Source: Candidatus Magasanikiibacteriota bacterium (GTDB lineage Bacteria > Patescibacteriota > Patescibacteriia > Magasanikbacterales > UBA922). From it: a DNA stretch of 64,000 bases. The stretch covers positions 767-64,766 of the forward strand of contig JBDROX010000044.1 of assembly GCA_043809645.1 (NCBI GenBank), in the 5' to 3' direction. Position numbers and translations under genes: made by a program. The notes below the pieces were generated by a model, which ran no database searches, was not told where the DNA came from, and was given only the letters and a program-made list of their open reading frames with translations. Positions 6,068 through 30,630 of this stretch are shown here, piece by piece (position 1 is the stretch's first letter; each line of letters starts with the position of its first letter).

Positions 6068-8602
6068 TTATCTTCGAATTCTCTCCTTATATCCTCTCCA
6101 CCCAGCCTCTCTATACTTCTTGGCTTCCAGTAGAGGGTTATCTGCCTTGTAGATGCCTCGCCCAACAATAATAATGTCGCTGTCGTGCTCACCAATAATC
6201 TTCTCAGGAGTATTATATTGCTGACCGAGGTTATCTATGCCTGTATCCAGTTTAACACCTGGTGTCATGTTTAGAAAGCCTGGATCATCAAGCTGCTTCT
6301 TCATGGCGATGAAGCCAATTACAAAATCCTTATTCTTCCCAGCCATTTTCATTGTCTCCTCTGTATAACTTCCTGTCGCCAGGTTTCCACTTGAGCTCAT
6401 TTCAGATAGGAGGAGTAGGCCTCTGCCTTTTGGCATGCCGACTTCCCTGAGCCCGTCGATGATTCCTGGGCCTGGGACTGTGTGTGCGTTCACAATATCT
6501 GCCCAGTCAGAAATGTGGTACACACCTTTCTCATATTGCTGCTTCACAGTGTTTCCAATATCTGCAAATTTTCTGTCTTCGAAGATCATGAAGTTGTAGA
6601 TTTCTGCGAATCTCTTGAGTTCTGCTACGAGGTGTTCATCGAAGTCCTCGACAATGTCGATATGTGTTTTGAATAGACAGATTTCTGGGCCTAGCATATT
6701 GGCGAGGGTCAGGAGTTCGTACTTAGTCGTCACATCTGCTGCCACGCAGAGATTGGTTTTCTTGTCTTCCATGATGTTGAAGAGCCGTTTTGCACTCGGG
6801 TTTGTACAGAGCATTGCTCGGTCGCCGTAGGAAAGTCTTGTTTTATTAGGCTTACTTATTTTTTTAGGAGTTACCTGATTCTCTCGCAGAAAATTCTGAA
6901 CTCGGTCGTACATTTCTCTATCAATATTGTCTGCATTCAGGAGATTTGTAAGAAGTTCATCCATGGTGATTACAGCATGCGCCGTGTAACCTCGCTTTTC
7001 AATATTTTTTCTTCCACCATGTTGTCTGTCGAGGAGGACTACAATATCGTGGACACGGAGTCCTTCTGCCTCAAGTGGTTCCACTGTTTCAAAAACACTA
7101 GAGCCGCTAGTAATGAGGTCTTCGACCACAAGGCAAGTATTTCCTGTGTCAAAAGTACCCTCTATCGTTTGCTTCGTTCCATACACCTTCACTTCTTTCC
7201 TTCTCATGACCATTGGCTTGTTATGTGCCAGAGATAGTGCTGTGGCTATTGGGAGGGCTGTGTATGGGACACCACAGACACAGTCGAACTGGACATCATT
7301 TACCTTCTCCCACATCATGTCGGCGACCAGGGAAAGGATTTCTGGGTAGGAGACAATGACGCGTAGGTCAATATAGATAGGGGAGGTGATACCACTCTTC
7401 AGTGTGAACTCACCAAATTTGATAGCGTCGATCTCAAAGAGCTTTTGAATCAGAAATTCTTTTTTTGAGGCTATGAGTACTTGTTCAATAAGATCTGGCT
7501 TTAGTCCTACTTCGCTTGCCAGTCCTTCATGATATCTCATGGCAAGGTATGGATCCCACATCATACCAGTCGCGCTCATAGCTACGTCTGCACCGCGACC
7601 CAGCATTTCGTCGAAGTGTTCTGGCTTCGTGATTCCACCAACGCCAATGAGCGTGAGGTCGAGATGTTCTTCTTTGATAATCTTTCTTGCTTTTGAAATA
7701 AAGTCATAGGCGTGGTTTCTGATTGGTCCACCACAAACTCCGCTAGTCTCGCGACCTTCTCCAAGCGCCGGTTTTCCATTTTCATCAATCACTTTTCTTC
7801 CAATAGTATTGATACCACTAATTGCGCGTGCGCCACCTCTTGCTGCAGCCAAGAAGATGTCGCGCATGAATTCATTGTTTTCAAATACACCGACTTTGAT
7901 GATGAGTGGGATGTGTCCAATTTCTTTTGTAATCTTTGAGCAAATTTCTTCTACTGTATCTGGGTTTGTGTAGATACTTCCTTCTCCACTGCAGACATTT
8001 GGACAGGAGAAGTTCGCTTCTATGATTTTCGCTCCAGCATCTCTGGCAAGGGCTGCTGTCTTTACAAAGTCCTCTGTGAAGTCTTCTCCAGGAGTTGGTG
8101 TGCCGACGATAGAGACGACAAGTACTTGTCCGTCTCGAAGAGATGCGTTGGCTGCTTTGATATCTTTGATAAGAGTTTCGTTTCCAGAGCTTGGCATGCC
8201 AAAAGAATTCGTAATAGCAAAAGAATCCATTGAGTCAGTCTGGTGTGTTGTTTGTTGGAGTGGTGCATTATCGCTACCATCTAGATTTTCTGGAGCTATA
8301 TAGACAATATTCGGATGTGGGTGACCAGCATACTCTCGGTTTCGAATGGTTTTGTATGTGATGATATCGAACCCAAGGTGGGATGCGAGCGCGGTCCACT
8401 TTGACGTGAGGAGTGGGCCGGCTGGAACACCGATAGGAGATCGAACTTTGTAGCCCAGAAAATCAATGGCCGGTTTTTTTGATTTAGGTCTTTCTGGAAT
8501 GCTGCCTTCAAAAAAAGGACCATGCGCTGCGTTGTATTCGTAACTCTTGTGAATATCGTAGAGTGGGGGATTCTTTGGAAACCACTGCGGAATCTTGGTC
8601 AT
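6068..8602 (-). CDS. pyrDEF: Tri-functional fusion: class-1-type dihydroorotate dehydrogenase (PyrD) + orotate phosphoribosyltransferase (PyrE) + OMP decarboxylase (PyrF), 844 aa
   Basis: N-term DHOD motifs (GVPAGPL, NFSCPN with Cys base, GVGGI); middle OPRTase PRPP loop (LVVEDLITSGSS); C-term ODCase motifs (DRKFADIGNTV, IIIVGRGIY). Confidence 0.85.
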   Translation of the reverse strand: MTKIPQWFPKNPPLYDIHKSYEYNAAHGPFFEGSIPERPKSKKPAIDFLGYKVRSPIGVPAGPLLTSKWTALASHLGFDIITYKTIRNREYAGHPHPNIVYIAPENLDGSDNAPLQQTTHQTDSMDSFAITNSFGMPSSGNETLIKDIKAANASLRDGQVLVVSIVGTPTPGEDFTEDFVKTAALARDAGAKIIEANFSCPNVCSGEGSIYTNPDTVEEICSKITKEIGHIPLIIKVGVFENNEFMRDIFLAAARGGARAISGINTIGRKVIDENGKPALGEGRETSGVCGGPIRNHAYDFISKARKIIKEEHLDLTLIGVGGITKPEHFDEMLGRGADVAMSATGMMWDPYLAMRYHEGLASEVGLKPDLIEQVLIASKKEFLIQKLFEIDAIKFGEFTLKSGITSPIYIDLRVIVSYPEILSLVADMMWEKVNDVQFDCVCGVPYTALPIATALSLAHNKPMVMRRKEVKVYGTKQTIEGTFDTGNTCLVVEDLITSGSSVFETVEPLEAEGLRVHDIVVLLDRQHGGRKNIEKRGYTAHAVITMDELLTNLLNADNIDREMYDRVQNFLRENQVTPKKISKPNKTRLSYGDRAMLCTNPSAKRLFNIMEDKKTNLCVAADVTTKYELLTLANMLGPEICLFKTHIDIVEDFDEHLVAELKRFAEIYNFMIFEDRKFADIGNTVKQQYEKGVYHISDWADIVNAHTVPGPGIIDGLREVGMPKGRGLLLLSEMSSSGNLATGSYTEETMKMAGKNKDFVIGFIAMKKQLDDPGFLNMTPGVKLDTGIDNLGQQYNTPEKIIGEHDSDIIIVGRGIYKADNPLLEAKKYREAGWRGYKERIRR
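6087..6174. repeat. Direct-repeat copy 2 (native 3' end of the pyrD-E-F fusion gene)
   Basis: See 5146-5233. Confidence 0.8.
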
Positions 8603-8612
8603 ACCTATGGTG

Positions 8613-10865
8613 TTAGTACTGAATATTCTCCTCCAGGAGCCACATGATCATTGCTTTTTGTGCATGGAGTCTGTTTTCTGCTTGGTTCAGGATGACAGCC
8701 TTTGGGTGGTTGATAGTATCACGCGAAATTTCGTATCCCACGTGAAGTGGCATACAGTGCATGATGTGCGCGTCTGGTGCGTACTCACTCATCAATTCTG
8801 CGTTAATCTGATATGGAAGAAATTGTTCCTTCCTTCTCTCATACTCACTTTGGAATTCTGGCTTCACTTTTCCGCTTTCTCCTCCAGAGGCGGACTCGTC
8901 TGCTGCGAGGAAAAATTCCATGTTCATCCATGTGTCTGTATGGACGAAGTCAGTTTTGGCAAGCGCTTCTTCCAGGTTCTGTGTTCTGGTGACAAGTCCT
9001 GTTGCCGCTGCCATGATATTTAATTCTGGATCAACACTTTTCTCATCTACTTCTGCTGCGGCTATAGCTACTTCGATGCCAAGCTTCGCGCACATGAGCA
9101 TGAGTGTGTTCGAGACATTGTTCTCAATGCCGAGCCAGGTGATTTTTTTAATATTTTCAACGCCACCTTTTATTTCCGTCATTGTCAAAAGGTCACTCAA
9201 GGCTTGCGCAGGGTGGTATTTCTCACTACACGCATCGATGACTGGAATTCTATTGAATGACGCAGCAAGCTCAACATCACTTGCTTGCTTTGCACGGAAC
9301 ATGAGGACATGTCCGAATCGCATGACTGCCTGGATTTCATCTGCGAAGTCTGTGAGAGAGAATTGGGCGGTTCTACTATCGAGGAAGATAGAGTGGCCAC
9401 CGAGTTCTGTCATACTAGCCTCGAAAGAGAGACGTGTTCGCGTTGATGTTTTCTGAAACAACATGATGAGTGTCTTGTTCTGGAGATAGTTGGTCAATCT
9501 TCCAGAATTTCTCTTTGCTTTTATTCTCTGTGCAATGTCTAGAATTTCCAAGATGTTTTTTCTTGACTGTTCTTTGAGTGAAATGATGTGGCGCATAGAT
9601 TTTTTCTGAATAGTTGATTTGATTATTGTACTGATATTTTTTTGAGGTTCATTTTGGGTAATTTCAGAAGCTGAGGTACAGTCATAGATTTTGTTTTTTA
9701 AAACTGTATACACTGGCCAGCCAGTGAGATTCCATCCGTTGAAAGGGGACCATCTGCATTTTGTAAATAATTTGTTGTTTTCAACAGCCTTTTTTTCTCT
9801 CAGATCAACTAGGACATAGTCGTTAGTCTTTTCTAGTCCAAAGATGTTTTTTGGGTTAGTACTCGTGAGCTCCACAATTTTTTCTAGAGAGATTTTTCGA
9901 TTATGATGGGCGTCTAAGAGAAGAGGAAGGAGTGTTTCTATTCCTGGGACACCAGATGGTGCCTCTCCATAGGGAAGAGATTTTTCGTTCAACGTATGTG
10001 GGGCATGGTCTGTACCAATAGTGTCGATTGTTCCATCTTGGATCCCCTCCCATAGTGCGTCCATATCTTTTGTTGATCGGAGTGGTGGGTTCATCTGTGC
10101 TTTGCAGCCAAGGGTGTTGTAGTGTGCTTCATTCAGAAAGAGATGGTGTGGTGTGACTTCCGCATACACACTCAGCCCTTCTCTCTTTGCTTCTCGAATC
10201 ATATCCAGTTCTGTCTTTGTACTCACGTGGCAGACATAGAATCGTGTTCCAAATGTTCTGGCTGCGTTGATAACTCTCTCGAGCGCGATAGCGGTGGCCT
10301 TTGGATTCCTCTTTTTGGAATGTACGGCCGGGTCTATTTCTCCTTCATATGTTGCCGAGCATTCTTTCAGATATGCCTCATCCTCTGCGTGCACAGCCAC
10401 AAGCATGTTTTCTTTTGCCGCAATTTCAGCCACACGGTTGAAATCTTTTTCTTCATCTATCAAAAGATCTCCTGTGCTTGAGCCCATGAATACTTTGATG
10501 GCCACTGATACATCCTTTGTGCTTCCTAGGTCATCCAGCCGATCTTTATCAGCCCCAACATAGAGTAAGTATCTCAGTGCGATGCTAGCTTCTGCTAGTC
10601 GCTTTTCAATAACCTCTTTTTTTTGTATCAGCCGTTCTCTCGATGTACATGATGGGGTATTGTTTGGCATGTCGAGGACTGTGGTCACTCCACCAGCAAT
10701 TGCTGCTTTTGAGGCTGTCTTCCAATCTTCCTTGTGCTCTGCACCAGGTGTACGGAAGTGTACATGTGGATCAATCAGGGCTGGAAGTGCGGTGAGCGAC
10801 TCAGCATTTGTTTCGGGTGGAAGATCAATGTCTATGGATTGATTGTTACATGTCTTTATGATCAT
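8613..10865 (-). CDS. pyrC: Bifunctional fusion: dihydroorotase (PyrC) + ornithine/aspartate carbamoyltransferase-fold domain (750 aa), CAD-like order
   Basis: N-term DHOase motifs (DPHVHFR, HAED, GTDHAPH); C-term transcarbamylase motifs (STRTR, HPAQ, HCMPL); HCxP and TDTWMNM resemble OTCase more than ATCase. Confidence 0.8.
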   Translation of the reverse strand: MIIKTCNNQSIDIDLPPETNAESLTALPALIDPHVHFRTPGAEHKEDWKTASKAAIAGGVTTVLDMPNNTPSCTSRERLIQKKEVIEKRLAEASIALRYLLYVGADKDRLDDLGSTKDVSVAIKVFMGSSTGDLLIDEEKDFNRVAEIAAKENMLVAVHAEDEAYLKECSATYEGEIDPAVHSKKRNPKATAIALERVINAARTFGTRFYVCHVSTKTELDMIREAKREGLSVYAEVTPHHLFLNEAHYNTLGCKAQMNPPLRSTKDMDALWEGIQDGTIDTIGTDHAPHTLNEKSLPYGEAPSGVPGIETLLPLLLDAHHNRKISLEKIVELTSTNPKNIFGLEKTNDYVLVDLREKKAVENNKLFTKCRWSPFNGWNLTGWPVYTVLKNKIYDCTSASEITQNEPQKNISTIIKSTIQKKSMRHIISLKEQSRKNILEILDIAQRIKAKRNSGRLTNYLQNKTLIMLFQKTSTRTRLSFEASMTELGGHSIFLDSRTAQFSLTDFADEIQAVMRFGHVLMFRAKQASDVELAASFNRIPVIDACSEKYHPAQALSDLLTMTEIKGGVENIKKITWLGIENNVSNTLMLMCAKLGIEVAIAAAEVDEKSVDPELNIMAAATGLVTRTQNLEEALAKTDFVHTDTWMNMEFFLAADESASGGESGKVKPEFQSEYERRKEQFLPYQINAELMSEYAPDAHIMHCMPLHVGYEISRDTINHPKAVILNQAENRLHAQKAMIMWLLEENIQY

Positions 10866-11375
10866 CTAATTGCTCTTATATTCGTAAATATTTTTTTGGC
10901 TAAATATCTTTTCGCAATATGCACACTGGAGTGTGAGCCCTGATCCATTCTCATGAGAAATGTGGAATCTTGAGTTCATGCGTTCATTATTTGTAATACA
11001 GGTTGGATTTGGACAGACAATGAGCCTTTCGATAGTTTCTGGAATCGATATTTTGAACTTTTCTGCAACCTTGAAGTTTCGAATAATATTGATTGTTGCA
11101 TTTGGTGCAAAGATAGCGACCTTATTTGCTTCATCTTTTGTCAGTTCTCTGTGCTCCACTTTGATAAGATCCTTGTGTCCTTGCTCTTTGCTTTCTAGGT
11201 TAAGGCCAACAGTCACAATTGTTTTATCTTCTGCAAGGTTTAGGATTCGAATAATTTTTATCGCCTGACCGGCGTCGATATGGTCGATCACAGTGCCATC
11301 TTCAATCGTGAAGACTTTGAATGTTCTAAGATCTTTTGGAGGTTGGTTGTTTTGAACAGTTTCCATATGTTGCAA
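10866..11375 (-). CDS. pyrI: Aspartate carbamoyltransferase regulatory subunit PyrI
   Basis: IEDGTVIDHI motif and C-terminal Zn ribbon (CPNPTC...CAYC). Confidence 0.85.
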   Translation of the reverse strand: MQHMETVQNNQPPKDLRTFKVFTIEDGTVIDHIDAGQAIKIIRILNLAEDKTIVTVGLNLESKEQGHKDLIKVEHRELTKDEANKVAIFAPNATINIIRNFKVAEKFKISIPETIERLIVCPNPTCITNNERMNSRFHISHENGSGLTLQCAYCEKIFSQKNIYEYKSN

Positions 11376-11380
11376 AGTTA

Positions 11381-12394
11381 TTATTGAAGTTTTCCAAGGA
11401 CAAGACCAAGGAGTGCCTGTCGGACATAGAGTCCGTTCTCAGCTTGTTGGAAGTAATATGCATGCGGAGTTGCATCAATATCTACTTCAATCTCATTCAC
11501 ACGTGGAAGCGGGTGAAGTATTCTCATATTTGGTTTGGCACTGTTCATCATGTCTTTGGTAAGGACAAAGACATTCTTCACGCGTTCATATTCCATTTTG
11601 TCTGGGAATCGTTCACCCTGAATTCGTGTTATGTAGAGAATATCTACTTTTGGCATGACTTCTTCTATGCTCGAGTGTTCGGTAAAGCCAATATTTTTCT
11701 TCTGGAGGTATCTGCAGATATAGTTTGGCATTTTGAGTGAGTCTGGTGCAATGAAGTGGAGCTCTGCGCCGAAGTGAGTGAGTGCCTGGGTCAGGGAGTG
11801 AACTGTTCTTCCATATTTGAGATCTCCGACTAGTGCGATTGAAAGCCCTTCGAGAGATCTTTGTGATTCTTTGATGGTGAAGAGATCAAGTAGTGTTTGA
11901 GTTGGATGTTGATTCGACCCGTCTCCGCCGTTCAAGATTGGTTTATCAGTAGCTTCTGCCGCACGACGGACTGAACCTTCCATTGGGTGGCGCATGACAA
12001 TGACATCTGCATATTGGCCAATTATTTTCATTGAGTCGTATATTGTCTCTTTCTTTTTTACAGAGGTGACATTTGCATCTGCAAATCCCATGACCTCTCC
12101 ACCGAGTCTTTTCATAGCCGTTTCGAATGAAAGTCTTGTTCTGGTTGATGGTTCAAAGAAACAGCTTGCCATGACGTATGTTTGGAGAAGTGTTGGTTGT
12201 GGCTTTTGTTTTAGCTGCTTTGCATGCTCGAGTACTTTCTCAATGTCTTCTTTGGAAAGATCTGTGATGGACAGTATATCTCTCCCTTCGAACGTTTTTT
12301 GTCTGGTTGTGAATTGTCCAGAGAGTTTTTCCAATATTTCTGCCTTCGATAGTCCTTCGAGGGCTGCCAATTCGCTTTGAGAAAGTGGGGTCAT
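11381..12394 (-). CDS. pyrB: Aspartate carbamoyltransferase catalytic subunit PyrB
   Basis: STRTR, HPTQ, RIQGERF, HPLPR motifs. Confidence 0.9.
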
Positions 12395-12483
12395 ATGTGT
12401 ATGTATAGTGAGTTAAGCCCTGTATTTGACTTCGAAGCCTTAGCCAGTACAGGATTCGTCATTTTCAGCTATTGCTGAAAAAG

Positions 12484-12514
12484 TGAAAAAAAAGACCACT
12501 CGTATCAGAGTGGC
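12484..12514 (-). terminator. Rho-independent terminator (minus strand): GGCCACTC-tgatacg-AGTGGTC + T8; followed by a second 8-bp hairpin TTTTCAGC-aata-GCTGAAAA (12459-12480)
   Basis: Stem-loop plus T-run read from sequence. Confidence 0.7.
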
Positions 12515-12626
12515 CATTGGCTTTGATTTATTTCCTCCTCGTCGATTACGTGGACGAGATATATTTTCATACTGAGAGGAGTGTATCATCTTTTGTTCTT
12601 CAGTACAAATGGATTGGTGTGGAAAA

Positions 12627-13667
12627 CTAAACTTCCTTCCCTTGCTCAACTATTTTATCTCGTAATTCTCCAAATACCTTGTTTGCGAGCGCACTTTCTT
12701 CATGAAAGAATGCATAATTGTCAGCTTTGTTGAAATAGGTGGTAAGGAGGCTGTCATGTGTTGGGTCTGTTTCGTATCCTTCTGGAATATCTGGATCTGG
12801 AATATCTGCAAGTTTTTCTTTAAGGTCTCTAGACGATTGGGCGACATGTATACCATTGCTGATTTCAAAATTATAACCAGGTAGTGTATCAGAATCAATA
12901 CGGGTTGTGCTCAATTTATGTATCAGTTTTGCAAGGGTCTTTTTTGCTATAAATATGCTATCTACTGGTGTCTTGCCTGCCTTTGGATAAATTACAATAG
13001 ATGGTTTTCCCTGTGCAGCTTTGTCATCAGGAGAAAAACATTTAATTTTAAAGGCATTAATTTCCCAGTTAAAATCTGAGTCTTGTGCAATCAAATCTAT
13101 GATAAGTTTGGCAATTTCTGGAAGCTGATCAAGTTTTGGTTGGATATGAATTTTAAATTCTCGAGCCAAATCTTTCCTTCTGTGATCTATGGCTTCTTTG
13201 TAGTATGTCTTTGCTTTTCGTTCGTAGTCACAATTCGGTTTTATATTCCTCTTTTCTTGATCTAGCCATTCTTTGGGAATTTCAATGTCTTCCTGAAGTG
13301 GTATCTCATGGATCCATTTATAAATACGTCCAAGAGCATTTTCCTGAACCTGTTCCTTTGTAGTTCCAGAGTATTTGCGTTCATGAGGATCTTTTGCTGA
13401 AAACATGTTTCTGTAAATAATTTGGTTTTCTAGAAGATCATTCACATCAGTCGGAGCCTTGCAATCTGCCAATCTAAAATATTGATAAAAACCAGAACCA
13501 TTTTTTTTTGGATGAACAGTGAGATCATCAAAATAAACTTCAGGAGAGAGTGTGTCCATAGCCATTTTTTTGTAGACTTTTGCTTGTTCAAGAGGGTGGA
13601 GTTCTGAAAAGTTTTCACTTTTTTCCCTTGCTTCATGAAGATGCGCACTCCGAGATCGTTCATTCAT
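12627..13667 (-). CDS. Hypothetical protein (346 aa), no recognisable domain
   Basis: Long ORF with coding-like composition between gatB and pyrB. Confidence 0.5.
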   Translation of the reverse strand: MNERSRSAHLHEAREKSENFSELHPLEQAKVYKKMAMDTLSPEVYFDDLTVHPKKNGSGFYQYFRLADCKAPTDVNDLLENQIIYRNMFSAKDPHERKYSGTTKEQVQENALGRIYKWIHEIPLQEDIEIPKEWLDQEKRNIKPNCDYERKAKTYYKEAIDHRRKDLAREFKIHIQPKLDQLPEIAKLIIDLIAQDSDFNWEINAFKIKCFSPDDKAAQGKPSIVIYPKAGKTPVDSIFIAKKTLAKLIHKLSTTRIDSDTLPGYNFEISNGIHVAQSSRDLKEKLADIPDPDIPEGYETDPTHDSLLTTYFNKADNYAFFHEESALANKVFGELRDKIVEQGKEV

Positions 13668-17251: not shown

Positions 17252-18472
17252 TTAAGACCTATTTGGAATGACAAAGAACCTTTCTTGGTCAAAAGTATGG
17301 TTACTATCTAAGACTTCTTCAGTTGGATCGGAATCTGCCTTTCTCGATACGTTGTCAAGGTTAAAAAGATTAAAACCATCAGGATCATATTTTTTTCTTT
17401 GTCTATCTAGATCCATAATACTAGCAGGGCAGCCCCTCATTGTGGTTGTGTCGTGTCCGTGCACATAGTTTCTCACAACATTTGGTAGGGGGTAATCTTT
17501 TTCTTCTTTTAGTCTTTCTCTCGCCCATACTAATGTATTTATAAGATGTAGATTGTTCTCATCAGGAGTTTTATCTTCGTATATACTTTTTAAAGTATCA
17601 TGGTGCCATTCGTTTACTCTGTCAACAAAAGCCGCCATTGTTTTTGGGTTTGTAATATCCCCTTGAAAAGAAATTGCTTGTTTGAGCTCATCAATATGAC
17701 CCTGAGAAAGTGGGGCATGTGTAAAAAGGCTCTTTGTTTCTTCGTCGTAATGAAATAATTTTTGTCTTATATAGAAACCTTTCATTTGTATATTTGTAGT
17801 TTTATGTTCAGTAGCCAACGATCTACCGCTGGATACCTTTTGCCCGTCTCCAATTCCTTTGTATCTACTCAGTGGTTTTTTTTGATGCTTTGCAATAGTC
17901 AAAACTGGTTGCATATCATGGTTTCCTGCCAAAGTTACGATATTGCCACCGTCTGCCTTTATTTTTTTGAGGATTTTCATTGTAAGTAGATCTGAAAGAC
18001 CTCTGTCTGAAATAAGGTCGCCCAAGAAAACCATTTCTCTGTCGCCACCAATCCATTCTATTGAATCTAAAAGTTCGAGAGCTTCTTTTTGCTTCTCTTT
18101 GAATCCAATTAATCTTTCTTCAGTCTCAAAAGGTGTGGACTGTGTTTTGAAAGTTATTGGGTCTGCGAGTTGTGCCATTTCAGTGTATATTTTTTTAAAT
18201 TGTCTCGCTTTTTCTTCTGGCATTGTGATCATTTCACTTAATACAGCATTTTCTAACACTTTGAGCGCACTACCATGAGCATCTCCTATTGCAACCAATT
18301 TAGCATTTTTTAGAATTTCTTCAGGGCTCTGGTCATCTTCTGTTTTTTCAGAAAATTCTAAAAATGTGACTCTTCCGGGTTCACCAATATTTAACTTTTT
18401 TTTTGTCTTGAATACTTCTTTAGTTTTTTCTATTTCACTTTTTTCTCTACCCTCTTTTTTTTTTATTTGCAT
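17252..18472 (-). CDS. PPP-family metallophosphoesterase (Ser/Thr phosphatase / ApaH-like), 406 aa
   Basis: GDAHG, GDLISDRG, GNHD, VHGHD motifs in canonical order. Confidence 0.75.
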   Translation of the reverse strand: MQIKKKEGREKSEIEKTKEVFKTKKKLNIGEPGRVTFLEFSEKTEDDQSPEEILKNAKLVAIGDAHGSALKVLENAVLSEMITMPEEKARQFKKIYTEMAQLADPITFKTQSTPFETEERLIGFKEKQKEALELLDSIEWIGGDREMVFLGDLISDRGLSDLLTMKILKKIKADGGNIVTLAGNHDMQPVLTIAKHQKKPLSRYKGIGDGQKVSSGRSLATEHKTTNIQMKGFYIRQKLFHYDEETKSLFTHAPLSQGHIDELKQAISFQGDITNPKTMAAFVDRVNEWHHDTLKSIYEDKTPDENNLHLINTLVWARERLKEEKDYPLPNVVRNYVHGHDTTTMRGCPASIMDLDRQRKKYDPDGFNLFNLDNVSRKADSDPTEEVLDSNHTFDQERFFVIPNRS

Positions 18473-28548: not shown

Positions 28549-29982
<1,434 letters not shown>

Positions 29983-30630
29983 CTACTGGCGCAGGTGATC
30001 AATGATTGTCTTCCATTCGTAGTCGAGTGTGTCAAAAATTTCTGCATCTGGCTTGAATGAAATTGTAGTTCCAGTAAACTTTGTTTTTCCAACTGCTCTT
30101 ACATTCTTTACGGCTTTTCCACGTTTGTATTCCTGAATCCAAATCTTTCCGTCTCTGTGAACTTCTGCTTTTACATCTACAGAAAGTGCATTTACAACAG
30201 AAACACCCACGCCGTGGAGACCGCCAGATACTTTGTACACAGTGTCACCGAATTTTCCACCGGCATGCAGCTTTGTCATGACCAGCTGGAGCGCACTGAC
30301 TTTCATTTTAGGATGAATACCAACCGGGATGCCACGACCGTTGTCAGTGACTGAAACCCAGTTTCCTGGAAGAAGCTTGATGGTGATATCTGTACAGTAC
30401 CCTGCCATGGCTTCATCGAATGCATTGTCTACCACTTCCCAAATCATGTGGTGGAGTCCGCGTTCGCCAGTCGAACCGATGTACATTCCAGGGCGCTTCC
30501 TTACTGCCTCGAGTCCTTCGAGTACGGTAATGGATTCTGCATCATATTTGGCATCCTTTTTCTTTGCAGGTGTTTTTTCTACCACTCCTTTACTGCTCTT
30601 TATTTCCTTTTTTTCAATCTTTTTTGGCAT
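29983..30630 (-). CDS. gyrB: DNA gyrase subunit B, N-terminal ATPase part, ending at in-frame TAG 29983-29985
   Basis: GHKL ATPase motifs (VVDNAFDEAMAG, DNGRGIPV, GLHGVGVSVVNALS). Confidence 0.85.
   Translation of the reverse strand: MPKKIEKKEIKSSKGVVEKTPAKKKDAKYDAESITVLEGLEAVRKRPGMYIGSTGERGLHHMIWEVVDNAFDEAMAGYCTDITIKLLPGNWVSVTDNGRGIPVGIHPKMKVSALQLVMTKLHAGGKFGDTVYKVSGGLHGVGVSVVNALSVDVKAEVHRDGKIWIQEYKRGKAVKNVRAVGKTKFTGTTISFKPDAEIFDTLDYEWKTIIDHLRQ

What the first reader, a model, noticed from the sequence alone, without database searches (positions are those of the whole stretch)
8613..12394. CAD-like dihydroorotase-transcarbamylase fusion next to a canonical pyrB-pyrI pair: two carbamoyltransferases in one operon
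The 750-aa ORF fuses a complete dihydroorotase (DPHVHFR, HAED, GTDHAPH) to a transcarbamylase-fold domain (STRTR, HPAQ, HCMPL). Its motifs (HCxP, TDTWMNM) look more like ornithine than aspartate carbamoyltransferase, yet it lacks the SMG ornithine-binding signature. Immediately upstream are a bona fide PyrB and PyrI. The fused domain could be an unusual second ATCase, a transcarbamylase with another substrate, or a non-catalytic scaffold (as in the Pseudomonas PyrB/PyrC' complexes, with roles reversed).
Basis: partly seen in the sequence, partly recalled or inferred. Interest (0 to 1): 0.65.

Follow-up and report, generated by a model that had tools for sequence, protein, structure and literature searches.

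The report
Dihydroorotase fused to ornithine-type transcarbamylase
A Candidatus Magasanikbacteria genome encodes, inside its pyrimidine operon and next to a normal aspartate carbamoyltransferase, a dihydroorotase fused to a divergent ornithine-type carbamoyltransferase from an uncharacterised, highly conserved clade that probably links citrulline/ornithine to the carbamoyl-phosphate pool used for pyrimidine synthesis.

Summary
ORF 10865..8613 (minus strand, 750 aa) is a complete dihydroorotase, a disordered linker of about 23 aa, and a complete transcarbamylase (TC). It sits in a tightly packed operon: pyrB, pyrI, pyrC::TC, pyrD::pyrE::pyrF.

The TC is not a second ATCase and not a dead scaffold. 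All carbamoyl-phosphate (CP) residues are intact, and it is as conserved as PyrB. It belongs to the ornithine-transcarbamylase branch but fails the DxxxSMG signature (it has DTWMNME plus a longer loop) and every curated OTCase cut-off.

It represents a tight clade of 62-77% identity found in 171 species of Patescibacteria (CPR) and DPANN archaea. Together with a sister group, this forms a "(D/N)ME" clade with no solved structure.

In 80 species loci the gene lies:
- in a pyr operon in 34;
- beside carbamate kinase in 16;
- sometimes beside carAB, argG/argH, or a decarboxylase-spermidine cluster.

Fusion to DHOase arose at least three times and is rare.

I read it as a reversible ornithine/citrulline transcarbamylase at the CP node. 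I slightly favour CP supply from citrulline to ATCase over anabolic citrulline synthesis, but the direction is unresolved. The fusion is annotated only as "dihydroorotase". It is a new variant of a known kind, of moderate interest.

The parts
11381..12394 (-). pyrB, the canonical aspartate carbamoyltransferase catalytic chain (337 aa).
   Evidence: TIGR00670 scores 381.8 against a cut-off of 236.95. Motifs are STRTR 83-87, HPTQ 163-166, RIQGER 257-262 and HPLPR 294-298.
10866..11375 (-). pyrI, the ATCase regulatory chain (169 aa, TTG start).
   Evidence: Pfam PyrI plus PyrI_C. TIGR00240 scores 178.6 against 148.55. Its stop codon directly abuts the ATG of the fusion.
8613..10865 (-). The 750-aa fusion ORF: dihydroorotase, linker, OTCase-branch transcarbamylase.
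9666..10865 (-). Dihydroorotase domain (residues 1 to about 400). All metal and catalytic motifs are present: HVH 34-36, the Lys of AIKVFMG at residue 124, VHAED, VCHVST and TDHAPH.
   Evidence: TIGR00857 scores 326.6 against 279. Best PDB sequence hits are B. anthracis DHOase 3mpg (E 5e-62), M. jannaschii 7uof and the human CAD DHOase domain. Foldseek gives 7uof E 3.5e-36 and CAD DHOase TM 0.86-0.89. pLDDT is 89-99.
9597..9665 (-). Inter-domain linker (residues about 401-423), A/T-rich and low in complexity. It ends at Met424, the ancestral start codon of the transcarbamylase gene.
   Evidence: pLDDT is below 50 for residues 406-421. MRHIISLKEQ aligns with the N-terminus MRHLISLKEQ of the stand-alone homologues. 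No Shine-Dalgarno-like sequence lies upstream of the internal ATG. Linkers differ in length in the other fusions.
8613..9596 (-). Transcarbamylase domain (residues 424-750) of the CPR/DPANN '(D/N)ME' clade. Motifs are FQKTSTRTR 470-478, YHPAQ 550-554, GIENNV 579-584, DTWMNME 644-650, HCMPL 703-707 and QAENRLH 728-734.
   Evidence: Pfam OTCace_N and OTCace. OTCase models score best but below their cut-offs. The best PDB hit is P. furiosus OTC 1a1s, E 2.9e-54. Stand-alone homologues are 70-77% identical.
8814..8936 (-). The remodelled 240s ('SMG') loop. DTWMNME replaces DxWxSMG, and the loop from Asp to the YQ motif is 41 residues. It includes a lineage-specific extra LAADESASGG at residues 653-662.
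   Evidence: Loop length is 41 here, 31 in the family, 27 in the sister group and 21 in SMG-type OTCases. Residues 657-662 are disordered in the model. The extra 10 aa are shared only with P0130 and P0163.
6068..8602 (-). The 844-aa PyrD-PyrE-PyrF triple fusion (dihydroorotate dehydrogenase, orotate phosphoribosyltransferase, OMP decarboxylase). It is the last gene of the operon and starts 10 nt after the fusion ORF.
   Evidence: Pfam DHO_dh 48-362, Pribosyltran 420-532 and OMPdecase 616-830. NF010382 scores 229.5 against 208, and TIGR01740 scores 203.4 against 92.3.
12395..12626 (-). The 232-nt intergenic region upstream of pyrB. It carries a hairpin followed by a run of T that looks like the terminator of the preceding gatB and orphan-ORF unit, so the pyr operon presumably starts here.
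   Evidence: The sequence was read (CCACTC...GAGTGG followed by T8). No promoter test was run.

Best explanation
The ORF encodes a genuine bifunctional protein.

How the fusion arose: the stop codon was lost between two adjacent, translationally coupled genes of the pyrimidine operon, pyrC and a transcarbamylase (TC) gene.

The two domains:
- The N-terminal domain is an active dihydroorotase.
- The C-terminal domain is an active, trimer-forming transcarbamylase of the ornithine branch. It most likely interconverts citrulline + phosphate and ornithine + carbamoyl phosphate (CP).
- It belongs to an uncharacterised clade specific to CPR bacteria and DPANN archaea. In this clade the OTCase SMG loop is replaced by a longer (D/N)ME loop.

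Proposed role: in this operon the TC shares the CP pool with the co-encoded PyrB/PyrI ATCase. My preferred reading is that it runs phosphorolytically. It would make CP from citrulline, itself derived from arginine or taken up, and hand it to ATCase. This would substitute for the carbamoyl-phosphate synthetase that is absent from this operon and from 30 of the 34 related pyr-context loci.

What is shown: the fusion, the intact catalytic motifs of both domains, the clade, its conservation and its gene neighbourhoods.

What is inferred: the ornithine/citrulline substrate pair, the direction of flux, and a CAD/Aquifex-like assembly of TC trimers bridged by DHOase dimers.
For: The domain looks like an active enzyme:
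- STRTR, the Arg of MFRAK, HPxQ, HCxP and the ENR Arg are invariant in 26 family members and present here.
- Among 25 species the TC is as conserved as PyrB. Median identity is 72% for both, against 58.7% for PyrC and 56.8% for PyrI.

It belongs to the ornithine branch:
- The best NCBIfam models are all OTCases.
- The best PDB hit is P. furiosus OTC, E 2.9e-54.
- It keeps the Lys two residues before STRT, which pairs with the ornithine carboxylate, and the Asn and Asp ornithine ligands (roles from PMC4581275 and PMC3282769).

Neighbouring genes in relatives link it to ornithine/citrulline and CP:
- Carbamate kinase (TIGR00746, 388.5 against 358) lies next to it in 16 of 80 species.
- L006 reads CK, TC, Orn/DAP-type decarboxylase, SpeE, SpeD.
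- L064 and L079 read DDAH/arginine-dihydrolase-like gene, pyrB, pyrI, CK, pyrC, TC, pyrD.

It is linked to the pyrimidine pathway:
- 34 of 80 species have it in a pyr context, in two different gene orders.
- DHOase-TC fusions fall in three separate lineages and were monophyletic in 0 of 100 bootstraps. There are also TC-DHODH fusions.

No other CP source is visible nearby:
- The 64-kb window has no CarA/B, CK or ArgG/H.
- 28 of 34 pyr-context loci show no CarAB or CK within 10 kb.
- Where CarB exists, it sits in the operon (4 of 4).

Catabolic transcarbamylases are an established CP source (PMC6022934).
Against: - The DxxxSMG signature that defines OTCases is absent, and every curated OTCase cut-off is missed. 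Ornithine is therefore inferred, not shown.
- Four operons carry carAB together with the TC (L015, L039, L066, L070). Three loci place argG next to it or in the same operon, and three place argH (L010, L039, L040, L082). That fits an ordinary anabolic OTCase consuming CP.
- The OTCase equilibrium favours citrulline synthesis (PMC6022934).
- Adjacency to carbamate kinase is also compatible with Pyrococcus-type anabolic CK feeding OTCase and ATCase (PMC6022934).
- No arginine deiminase was found in the window, and the deiminase-like gene of L064/L079 is a weak match (24.6 bits).
- Whole genomes could not be inspected, so the absence of CPSase or CK in this organism is unproven.
- Some relatives keep the TC but have lost the pyr genes (L007, L056, L080), and DPANN copies stand alone. 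The enzyme therefore does not depend on the pyrimidine pathway.
- Fusion may be nearly neutral: the gap between pyrC and the TC gene is 3 nt, in frame, in 5 of 23 unfused operons.
Confidence: 0.4

Rival explanations
1. The enzyme and substrate pair are the same, but the flux runs the other way. The domain is the lineage's anabolic OTCase (ArgF). It consumes CP and ornithine to make citrulline for ArgG/ArgH. It sits in the pyr operon only because both pathways draw on one CP source, either CPSase or an anabolic carbamate kinase encoded elsewhere. The fusion to DHOase is a neutral by-product of tight gene packing.
For: - L082 reads argB, argD, argG, argH, TC.
- L040 reads gatB, argG, argH, pyrB, pyrI, pyrC, TC.
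- L010 has argG directly upstream of the TC.
- L039 reads argH, carA, carB, pyrB ... TC.
- CarAB is in the same operon in 4 species.
- A sister-group member, P0248, just reaches NCBI's OTCase equivalog PRK14804 (373.9 against 373).
- The nearest solved structure is the anabolic P. furiosus OTC, which takes CP from a carbamate kinase (PMC6022934).
- The in-frame 3-nt gaps make accidental fusion easy.
Against: - argG and argH are each seen in only 3 of 80 loci (4 loci in all), and not in the window.
- A 1:1 covalent coupling of a competing CP consumer to the pyrimidine pathway, arising in at least 3 lineages, is odd.
- The CK-TC-decarboxylase-spermidine cluster and the deiminase-like gene in L064/L079 read more naturally with the TC producing ornithine.
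- No glutamate-to-ornithine genes were seen in the window or in any locus except L082 (argB, argD), so where ornithine would come from is unclear. Whole genomes were not inspected.
Confidence: 0.33
2. The domain is a transcarbamylase with a second substrate other than ornithine/citrulline, for example another basic amino acid or an unknown ureido compound. The remodelled, longer (D/N)ME loop and the extra acidic residues (GIENNV, ME) would define a new specificity.
For: - DxxxSMG is replaced in every one of 120 family members examined.
- The loop is 10-20 residues longer than in OTCases.
- The 80s loop, the ACSEKYHPAQ stretch and the GiENNV stretch all differ from the OTCase consensus.
- All OTCase equivalog cut-offs are missed.
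- The (D/N)ME clade separates from SMG-type OTCases (bootstrap 76).
- Changes in this loop are known to switch specificity between ornithine and putrescine (PMC3282769).
- No member of the clade has a solved structure.
Against: - The Lys before STRT and the Asn, Asp and Met ornithine ligands are retained.
- The PTCase, DPTCase and DBTCase signatures are absent (sequence).
- The argG/argH, ornithine-type decarboxylase and carbamate kinase neighbourhoods fit ornithine/citrulline.
Confidence: 0.2
3. The domain is a catalytically inactive scaffold that only organises or activates DHOase or ATCase. This would be the mirror image of the Pseudomonas PyrB/PyrC' system.
For: Transcarbamylase and DHOase do form structural complexes in Aquifex and in CAD (PMC4581275, PMC6022934). 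The domain is fused to DHOase.
Against: - All CP-binding and catalytic motifs are invariant.
- Conservation equals that of PyrB.
- The same protein occurs alone, beside carbamate kinase or beside arg genes, with no pyr genes nearby.
Confidence: 0.03
4. The domain is a second, unusual aspartate carbamoyltransferase.
For: It lies in a pyrimidine operon and has the CAD-like domain order of DHOase followed by TCase.
Against: - There is no RxQxER motif.
- It has Lys rather than Glu in FxKxSTRT, and HCMP rather than HPLP.
- Most PDB ATCase hits cover only the CP-binding domain, at E about 1e-16 to 1e-21, against 3e-54 for OTCase.
- A canonical PyrB/PyrI pair is already present.
Confidence: 0.02
5. 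The fusion is an artefact of sequencing or assembly, such as a lost stop codon in a metagenome-assembled genome. In the cell the two proteins would be separate.
For: The source is a MAG. Another gene in the window, gyrB, appears frameshifted. The ancestral start Met of the TC is retained at residue 424.
Against: - The linker is a 23-codon open stretch, not a single read-through codon.
- Five independent records from NCBI, JGI and Logan carry DHOase-TC fusions, with different linkers.
- The neighbouring pyrD-E-F is also fused, and fusions with DHODH occur in P0003 and P0006.
Confidence: 0.02

Closest known systems
Ornithine carbamoyltransferase (ArgF/ArgI anabolic, ArcB catabolic; EC 2.1.3.3)
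   Same: It has the same two-domain fold and the same CP motifs (STRTR, HPxQ, HCxP, ENR). It keeps the Lys before STRT and the Asn, Asp and Met ornithine ligands. OTCases give the best HMM and PDB matches. Databases name the stand-alone homologues OTCase.
   Different: DxxxSMG is replaced by DTWM(D/N)ME and the loop is 10-20 aa longer. The 80s loop is different, GDGNN becomes G(I/V)ENN, and HCLPAxR becomes HCMP(C/L)H. It scores below every curated OTCase cut-off. It forms a separate clade at no more than 48% identity to anything outside the clade. It is embedded in pyr operons and here is fused to DHOase.
CAD and the Aquifex aeolicus DHOase-ATCase complex
   Same: A DHOase is physically coupled to a trimeric transcarbamylase, in the same N-to-C order as the DHOase and ATCase domains of CAD. 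The DHOase domain superposes on human CAD DHOase at TM 0.86-0.89.
   Different: The coupled transcarbamylase is of the OTCase type, not an ATCase. There are no GATase or CPSase domains. ATCase is a separate PyrB/PyrI enzyme. The linker is about 23 aa. The oligomeric architecture is untested.
Arginine deiminase pathway (ArcA, ArcB, ArcC) and other catabolic transcarbamylase plus carbamate kinase pairs
   Same: In 16 of 80 relatives the TC gene is adjacent to a bona fide carbamate kinase. Reviews treat this arrangement as the hallmark of catabolic transcarbamylases (PMC6022934).
   Different: No carbamate kinase or deiminase lies in this window. The CP sink proposed here is ATCase rather than carbamate kinase. 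The only deiminase-like neighbour (L064/L079) is a weak DDAH/arginine-dihydrolase-family match.
Putrescine carbamoyltransferase (PTCase)
   Same: It is also an OTCase-branch enzyme in which the SMG loop has been replaced, changing the loop that sets specificity (PMC3282769).
   Different: All three PTCase signatures are absent: the Gln before STRT, the (Y/W)(G/W)(V/L/I) loop, and the C-terminal helix of about 20 aa. TIGR04384 scores 202.6 against a cut-off of 500.
Pseudomonas class A ATCase (PyrB with the inactive DHOase-like PyrC')
   Same: It pairs a DHOase-fold protein with a transcarbamylase-fold protein.
   Different: Here both partners keep all catalytic residues, so neither is a pseudoenzyme.

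Membership tests
Transcarbamylase superfamily (ATCase/OTCase fold) | The CP-binding motifs SxRT, HPxQ and HxLP, plus the two Pfam domains. | tested here: met
   STRTR 474-478, YHPAQ 550-554 and HCMPL 703-707. OTCace_N E 2.5e-36 and OTCace E 4e-34.
Ornithine carbamoyltransferase | The DxxxSMG motif of the 240s/SMG loop. | tested here: not met
   The sequence is DTWMNME here and DTW[MLIT][DN]ME in all 120 family members checked. The motif definition comes from PMC4581275.
Ornithine carbamoyltransferase | The Lys in FxKxSxRT, and the Asn167 and Asp231 equivalents that bind ornithine. | tested here: met
   In FQKTSTRT, ENNV and HTDTW the Lys, both Asn residues and the Asp are invariant in the family.
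Ornithine carbamoyltransferase | A score above a curated equivalog cut-off in NCBIfam. | tested here: not met
   TIGR00658 scores 247.2 against 280.85. PRK00779 scores 264.6 against 306. PRK14804 scores 250.1 against 373.
Ornithine carbamoyltransferase | Genomic association with arginine biosynthesis or arginine deiminase genes. | tested here: inconclusive
   None is present in the window. In relatives, argG is seen in 3 of 80 loci, argH in 3 of 80, carbamate kinase in 16 of 80, and a full arg operon in L082.
Ornithine carbamoyltransferase | Catalysis of ornithine + CP to citrulline + phosphate, in either direction. | not testable with these tools
   This needs an enzyme assay.
Aspartate carbamoyltransferase | The RxQxER motif, a Glu in FxExSxRT, and HPLP. 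| tested here: not met
   The fused domain has DTWMNME, FQKTSTRT and HCMP. The neighbouring PyrB has [14 protein letters not shown] and HPLPR.
Putrescine carbamoyltransferase | A Gln two residues before STRT, the 230-loop (Y/W)(G/W)(V/L/I)x, and a C-terminal helix extension of about 20 aa. | tested here: not met
   It has Lys, the loop reads MNME, and there is no extension because the protein ends 8 residues after helix 12. TIGR04384 scores 202.6 against 500.
Diaminopropionate and diaminobutyrate transcarbamylases (DPTCase, DBTCase) | (T/S)RWQ(T/S)(T/M)G in place of DxxxSMG, and HDLP. | tested here: not met
   The Asp is retained (DTW...) and the motif is HCMP.
Dihydroorotase (bacterial type I / CAD type) | HxH, a carboxylated Lys, two further His residues and the catalytic Asp, plus a score above the family cut-off. 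| tested here: met
   HVH 34-36, the Lys of AIKVFMG, VHAED, VCHVST and TDHAPH are present. TIGR00857 scores 326.6 against 279. The domain aligns to 3mpg and 7uof over its full length.
CAD-type multifunctional pyrimidine enzyme | GATase and CPSase domains plus DHOase plus ATCase in one chain. | tested here: not met
   Only the order DHOase then TCase is shared. There is no CPSase or GATase domain, and the TCase is of the OTCase type.
Pseudoenzyme scaffold (PyrC'-like logic) | Loss of catalytic or ligand residues in one partner. | tested here: not met
   Both domains keep all their catalytic motifs. TC conservation equals that of PyrB.
CPR/DPANN (D/N)ME transcarbamylase clade (defined here) | The motifs ENNVSNTL, HTDTWM(D/N)MEFF and IMHCMP(C/L)H, at least 60% identity to other members, and monophyly. 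| tested here: met
   The window domain is 69-77% identical to 25 members. Clade A has a bootstrap of 97 out of 100. The family collapses into one full-length cluster at 50% identity.

The most novel reading that the evidence does not exclude
These CPR bacteria would run de novo pyrimidine synthesis without any carbamoyl-phosphate synthetase. A dedicated (D/N)ME-type transcarbamylase, encoded inside the pyr operon where Firmicute pyr operons carry the CPSase genes, would phosphorolyse citrulline obtained from host arginine or by uptake. It would pass the labile carbamoyl phosphate directly to ATCase. In the fused forms this would happen on a CAD-like particle of transcarbamylase trimers bridged by DHOase dimers. 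The net reaction would be a citrulline:aspartate carbamoyl transfer that costs no ATP.
Probability: 0.35. Interest if true: 0.75.

Novelty: new variant of a known kind. Interest (0 to 1): 0.5.

Why it matters
Transcarbamylases are routinely mis-annotated, and their specificity rests on one loop. This is a large and very conserved clade: 171 species in a set of species representatives, 62-77% identical across bacteria and archaea. In it that loop has been rebuilt, and no member has been assayed or solved.

Its repeated linkage to pyrimidine genes, by operon membership in 34 of 80 species and by covalent fusion in at least three lineages, bears on a practical question for the biology of ultra-small symbionts. 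Where do CPR bacteria that still make pyrimidines get carbamoyl phosphate?

If the enzyme supplies CP from citrulline, this would be a documented case of a catabolic transcarbamylase recruited into a biosynthetic pathway, and an ATP-free first step for pyrimidine synthesis. If it is simply the local OTCase, the DxxxSMG rule used to annotate OTCases needs amending. Either outcome can be tested with a simple recombinant assay.

Tried and rejected
- Second ATCase: rejected on motifs and model scores.
- PTCase, DPTCase, DBTCase: rejected on their published signatures.
- Pseudoenzyme scaffold: rejected on conservation.
- CP-related genes in the window: I searched for CK, CarA/B, ArgG/H, PyrK, a class III aminotransferase, an AspA-like lyase and a YgeW-type transcarbamylase by tblastn and found none. 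Pfam on 20 further window ORFs gave only nucleotide-metabolism and housekeeping genes.
- Arginine or agmatine deiminase: a G-G-x-x-H-C-x-T regular expression over all loci and the window found only the 307-aa gene of L064/L079.
- Literature: searches for a CPR transcarbamylase, for a DHOase-OTCase fusion, or for CPSase-independent pyrimidine synthesis found nothing specific.
- CarB homologue search, meant to gauge how common CPSase is in CPR: uninformative. CPR CarB is 65-68% identical to Chlamydiales CarB and few hits carry names.
- Contexts of the sister group (P0248, P0274): uninformative.
- Exact look-up of the window protein in the assembly index: no record, so the other contigs of this MAG could not be reached.
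- Foldseek on the full model: returned only DHOase-fold matches among the 50 listed and added nothing on the TC domain.
- The 346-aa ORF between gatB and pyrB: no family match and not conserved in relatives.

Full report
**Observation**

The minus strand between 12394 and 6068 carries four tightly packed ORFs:
- a 337-aa protein (12394..11381);
- a 169-aa protein (11375..10866);
- the 750-aa ORF of the finding (10865..8613);
- an 844-aa ORF (8602..6068).

The gaps between them are 5, 0 and 10 nt.

- The first two ORFs are a canonical ATCase catalytic chain and its regulatory chain. TIGR00670 scores 381.8 against a cut-off of 236.95, and TIGR00240 scores 178.6 against 148.55. PyrB carries STRTR, HPTQ, RIQGER and HPLPR.
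- The 750-aa ORF has an Amidohydro_1/dihydroorotase domain at residues 26-346 (TIGR00857 326.6 against 279). It has both transcarbamylase Pfam domains at residues 425-742.
- The last ORF is a PyrD-PyrE-PyrF triple fusion.

The window is from a Candidatus Magasanikbacteria MAG. An identical protein, P0001, is named 'MAG: dihydroorotase' by NCBI.

**Is the fusion real?**

AlphaFold2 on an alignment of 61 sequences gives mean pLDDT 92.4. It shows two confident domains, a disordered linker at residues 406-421, and a disordered tip of the 240s loop at residues 657-662.

The transcarbamylase part begins at Met424 with MRHIISLKEQ, which is the N-terminus of the stand-alone homologues (MRHLISLKEQ). 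The fusion therefore arose by read-through from pyrC into the next gene. No Shine-Dalgarno-like sequence precedes the internal ATG.

Other fusions are on record:
- Four further DHOase-TC fusions (P0002-P0005). One of them, P0003, extends into DHODH.
- One TC-DHODH fusion (P0006).

The linkers are about 29, 13 and 5 residues long. In a neighbour-joining tree of the TC domains, the DHOase fusions fall in three separate places. All fusions together were monophyletic in 0 of 100 bootstrap replicates, while the P0002+P0003 pair and the P0004+P0005 pair each scored 100.

In unfused operons the gap between pyrC and the TC gene is exactly 3 nt in 5 of 23 cases, so a single stop-codon change creates a fusion. 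None of the 80 species-representative loci carries the fusion. It is therefore recurrent but rare.

**What the dihydroorotase domain is**

It aligns over its full length with B. anthracis DHOase (3mpg, E 5e-62), M. jannaschii DHOase (7uof) and the DHOase domain of human CAD. The HxH pair, the Lys of AIKVFMG, the two further His residues and the Asp of TDHAPH are all present. Foldseek agrees: 7uof at E 3.5e-36, and CAD DHOase at TM 0.86-0.89. It looks like an active enzyme.

**What the transcarbamylase domain is**

*Scores.*
- The best NCBIfam models are all OTCases, but each falls below its curated cut-off: PRK00779 264.6 against 306, PRK14804 250.1 against 373, TIGR00658 247.2 against 280.85.
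- PTCase scores 202.6 against 500.
- The best solved relative is the P. furiosus OTCase (1a1s, E 2.9e-54). Most ATCase hits cover only the CP-binding domain.

*Active-site positions.*
- The CP site is complete: STRTR, the Arg of MFRAK, HPAQ, HCMP and the ENR Arg.
- Of the positions the transcarbamylase literature assigns to ornithine binding (PMC4581275; PMC3282769), four are kept. These are the Lys two residues before STRT, and the Asn167, Asp231 and Met236 equivalents.
- Ser235 is replaced by Asn or Asp, and Gly237 by Glu. DxWxSMG thus becomes DTWM(D/N)ME, and the loop that follows is longer.
- The loop from the Asp to the YQ motif is 31 residues in the family and 41 here, against 21 in SMG-type OTCases.
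- The 80s loop, the stretch before HPxQ (ACSEKY) and the GDGNN motif (here G-I-E-N-N) also differ from the OTCase consensus.

*Signatures that are absent.*
- ATCase: RxQxER, Glu before STRT, HPLP.
- PTCase: Gln before STRT, the YGLY-type loop, the C-terminal helix.
- Diaminopropionate and diaminobutyrate enzymes: (T/S)RWQ, HDLP.

The domain therefore sits on the OTCase branch and works on something that carries a carboxylate, like ornithine. It fails the motif that defines OTCases.

**A family, not a one-off**

- The domain has hundreds of stand-alone homologues of 313-329 aa at 67-77% identity. Where named, they come from Magasanikbacteria, Falkowbacteria, other Patescibacteria, Woesearchaeota and Nanoarchaeota.
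- All 120 listed carry DTW[MLIT][DN]ME.
- In a library clustered at 50% identity the family collapses into a single full-length representative (472 bits). The next protein is 48% identical (269 bits). A sister group at about 41-43% identity follows, with DTWVDME and HDMPIH motifs, and canonical SMG-type OTCases come after that at 32-40%.
- With the motif columns removed, the family is monophyletic in 97 of 100 bootstraps. The family plus the sister group is monophyletic in 76 of 100.
- One sister-group protein just reaches NCBI's PRK14804 OTCase equivalog cut-off (373.9 against 373).
- No member of either group has a solved structure, and I found no paper on them.
- A scan of one genome per species found the family in 171 species, and 80 loci were fetched.

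**Gene neighbourhoods in the 80 species loci**

This analysis used my own ORF calling, BLAST against the window's genes, clustering, and Pfam/NCBIfam checks of cluster representatives.

- 34 loci have pyr genes nearby.
  - The usual order is gatB, pyrB, pyrI, pyrC, TC, pyrD (1B type), pyrK, pyrE, pyrF.
  - A second order has the TC after pyrF (L061, L069, L083).
- 16 loci have a bona fide carbamate kinase next to the TC (TIGR00746 388.5 against 358.25). Two of these are inside the pyr operon (L064, L079).
- 4 loci have carB directly upstream of pyrB in the same operon as the TC, three of them with carA as well (L015, L039, L066, L070).
- argG is found in L010, L040 and L082, and argH in L039, L040 and L082 (TIGR00838 299.6 against 279.5). 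L082 is a full argB, argD, argG, argH, TC operon.
- L006 reads CK, TC, Orn/DAP-type decarboxylase, spermidine synthase, SAM decarboxylase::spermidine synthase.
- L051 and L067 read YgeW, CK, TC.
- In L007, L056 and L080 the TC remains after gatB although the pyr genes are gone. The DPANN copies stand alone.
- L064 and L079 start the operon with a 307-aa protein that weakly matches DDAH and arginine dihydrolase (PF19420 24.6 bits; NF052232 E 1e-5). It ends in GGSYHCLT, the catalytic-Cys motif of guanidino-modifying enzymes as I recall it. That gives a deiminase-like, TC and CK trio interleaved with pyr genes.
- 28 of the 34 pyr-context loci show no CarAB or CK within 10 kb.
- The 64-kb window has none of CK, CarA/B, ArgG/H or PyrK. 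Its surroundings are a nucleotide-metabolism supercluster: dCMP deaminase, a kinase, dUTPase, ThyA, DHFR, Tmk and GatB.

**Is it an active enzyme?**

Among 25 species that have TC, PyrB, PyrI and PyrC together, median pairwise identity is 72% for the TC. That equals PyrB (72%) and PyrF (72.6%), and exceeds PyrC (58.7%), PyrI (56.8%) and GatB (64.7%). Together with the invariant catalytic residues, this excludes a decaying or purely structural domain.

**How it most likely works**

*Shown:*
- the protein is a fusion of an intact DHOase and an intact transcarbamylase of a distinct OTCase-branch clade;
- the clade is associated with genes that make or use carbamoyl phosphate (ATCase, carbamate kinase, CPSase);
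- it is also associated with genes that use citrulline or ornithine (ArgG/ArgH, a decarboxylase-polyamine cluster).

*Inferred:*
- The second substrate pair is ornithine/citrulline. I put this at about 0.7.
- Transcarbamylases are obligate trimers and DHOases are dimers. By analogy with the Aquifex DHOase-ATCase dodecamer and the CAD core (PMC6022934, PMC4581275), a DHOase-TC chain should form two TC trimers bridged by three DHOase dimers.

*Direction of flux.* The direction in this organism cannot be read from sequence.

I slightly favour CP supply, meaning citrulline plus phosphate giving ornithine plus CP, with ATCase as the pulling reaction. My reasons:
- The TC is covalently or operonically tied to the pyrimidine pathway in many lineages.
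- No CP source lies in most of these operons, and when CarAB exists in these lineages it is in the operon.
- The decarboxylase-spermidine cluster and the deiminase-like/CK/TC trio read as ornithine-producing.
- From my own knowledge of Bacillus-type pyr operons, the gene occupies the slot between pyrC and pyrD where the CPSase genes sit in those operons.

Against this:
- The operons that carry carAB, argG or argH together with the TC show that in some lineages it is simply the anabolic OTCase.
- The OTCase equilibrium favours citrulline.
- Adjacency to carbamate kinase also fits Pyrococcus-type anabolic CK (PMC6022934).

I therefore give 0.40 to CP supply, 0.33 to anabolic OTCase, 0.20 to a different second substrate, and a few per cent in total to ATCase, scaffold or artefact.

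**Comparison with known systems and novelty**

The thing works like an OTCase and is laid out like the DHOase-ATCase half of CAD, but it is a member of neither. It fails DxxxSMG and the OTCase cut-offs. It lacks CPSase, and its transcarbamylase is not an ATCase. It is not a PTCase, and it is not a PyrC'-type pseudoenzyme arrangement.

Databases call the stand-alone genes 'ornithine carbamoyltransferase' and call this fusion 'dihydroorotase'. I found no description of the clade, of its place in pyr operons, or of the fusions. I classify it as a new variant of a known kind.

Interest is moderate (0.5). It would be higher if the CP-supply reading proves true, because that would be a CPSase-independent entry into pyrimidine synthesis in CPR bacteria.

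**Limits**

- The context statistics rest on my own ORF calls and on windows of at most 10 kb either side.
- Whole genomes could not be inspected.
- The trees are neighbour-joining.
- The deiminase-like assignment is weak.
- No coordinates of the model were available to examine the substrate pocket.

Noticed in passing
window 6068..8602 (-): An 844-aa single-chain PyrD-PyrE-PyrF (DHODH, OPRTase, OMP decarboxylase). With the DHOase-TC fusion, steps three to six of UMP synthesis plus the extra transcarbamylase sit on only two polypeptides. The DHODH part is divergent (PF01180, 72 bits), and no PyrK is present in the window.
   Followed up: partly
window 28549..30630 (-): gyrB is split. The N-terminal 215 aa lie at 30630..29983 and the C-terminal 415 aa at 29796..28549. 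A 186-nt gap separates them, and the missing segment seems to lie in another frame (ORF 30092..29931). This is a frameshift or an assembly indel.
   Followed up: partly
L064:4264-5187 and L079:3061-3984: A 307-aa protein heads a pyr operon that also contains carbamate kinase and the TC. It weakly matches DDAH and arginine dihydrolase families and ends in GGSYHCLT. It may be an arginine-to-citrulline enzyme. It was found only in these two closely related species.
   Followed up: partly
L032, L035, L052, L062, L075 (e.g. L035:5860-7182): A 440-aa P-loop protein, distantly related to cyclic 2,3-diphosphoglycerate synthetase (PDB 9sxb, E 1e-7), lies directly next to carbamate kinase in five species. 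The TC gene is close by in the three loci where my ORF caller found it (L035, L062, L075). Its function is unknown.
   Followed up: partly
L010:8368-9990: An argininosuccinate synthase (540 aa) carries a C-terminal MGS-like domain that matches the allosteric tail of CarB. It lies directly upstream of the TC, in a locus that has pyrD/K/E but no pyrB/I/C.
   Followed up: no
L006:9048-14291: A cluster reading carbamate kinase, TC, Orn/DAP-type decarboxylase, spermidine synthase, SAM decarboxylase::spermidine synthase. It links the TC family to polyamine synthesis.
   Followed up: partly
L051:7819-10942 and L067:1021-4177: A knotted YgeW-type transcarbamylase (NF005538, about 600 bits), carbamate kinase and the (D/N)ME transcarbamylase lie in a row. 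That makes two different transcarbamylases flanking one carbamate kinase.
   Followed up: no
window 12627..13667 (-): A 346-aa Lys/Glu-rich ORF lies between gatB and pyrB. It has no Pfam or NCBIfam match and no counterpart in related loci. It is followed by a terminator-like hairpin and a run of eight T (12395..12626).
   Followed up: partly
window 17252..18472 (-): A 406-aa WipA-like/calcineurin-type phosphoesterase is inserted between thyA and folA in the dTMP gene cluster.
   Followed up: no
(P0010, P0018, P0406, P0415 and others): The closest non-CPR relatives of both the DHOase domain and the CPR CarB are from environmental Chlamydiales (50-57% and 65-67% identity). This hints at gene exchange of pyrimidine genes between these symbiont lineages.
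   Followed up: no
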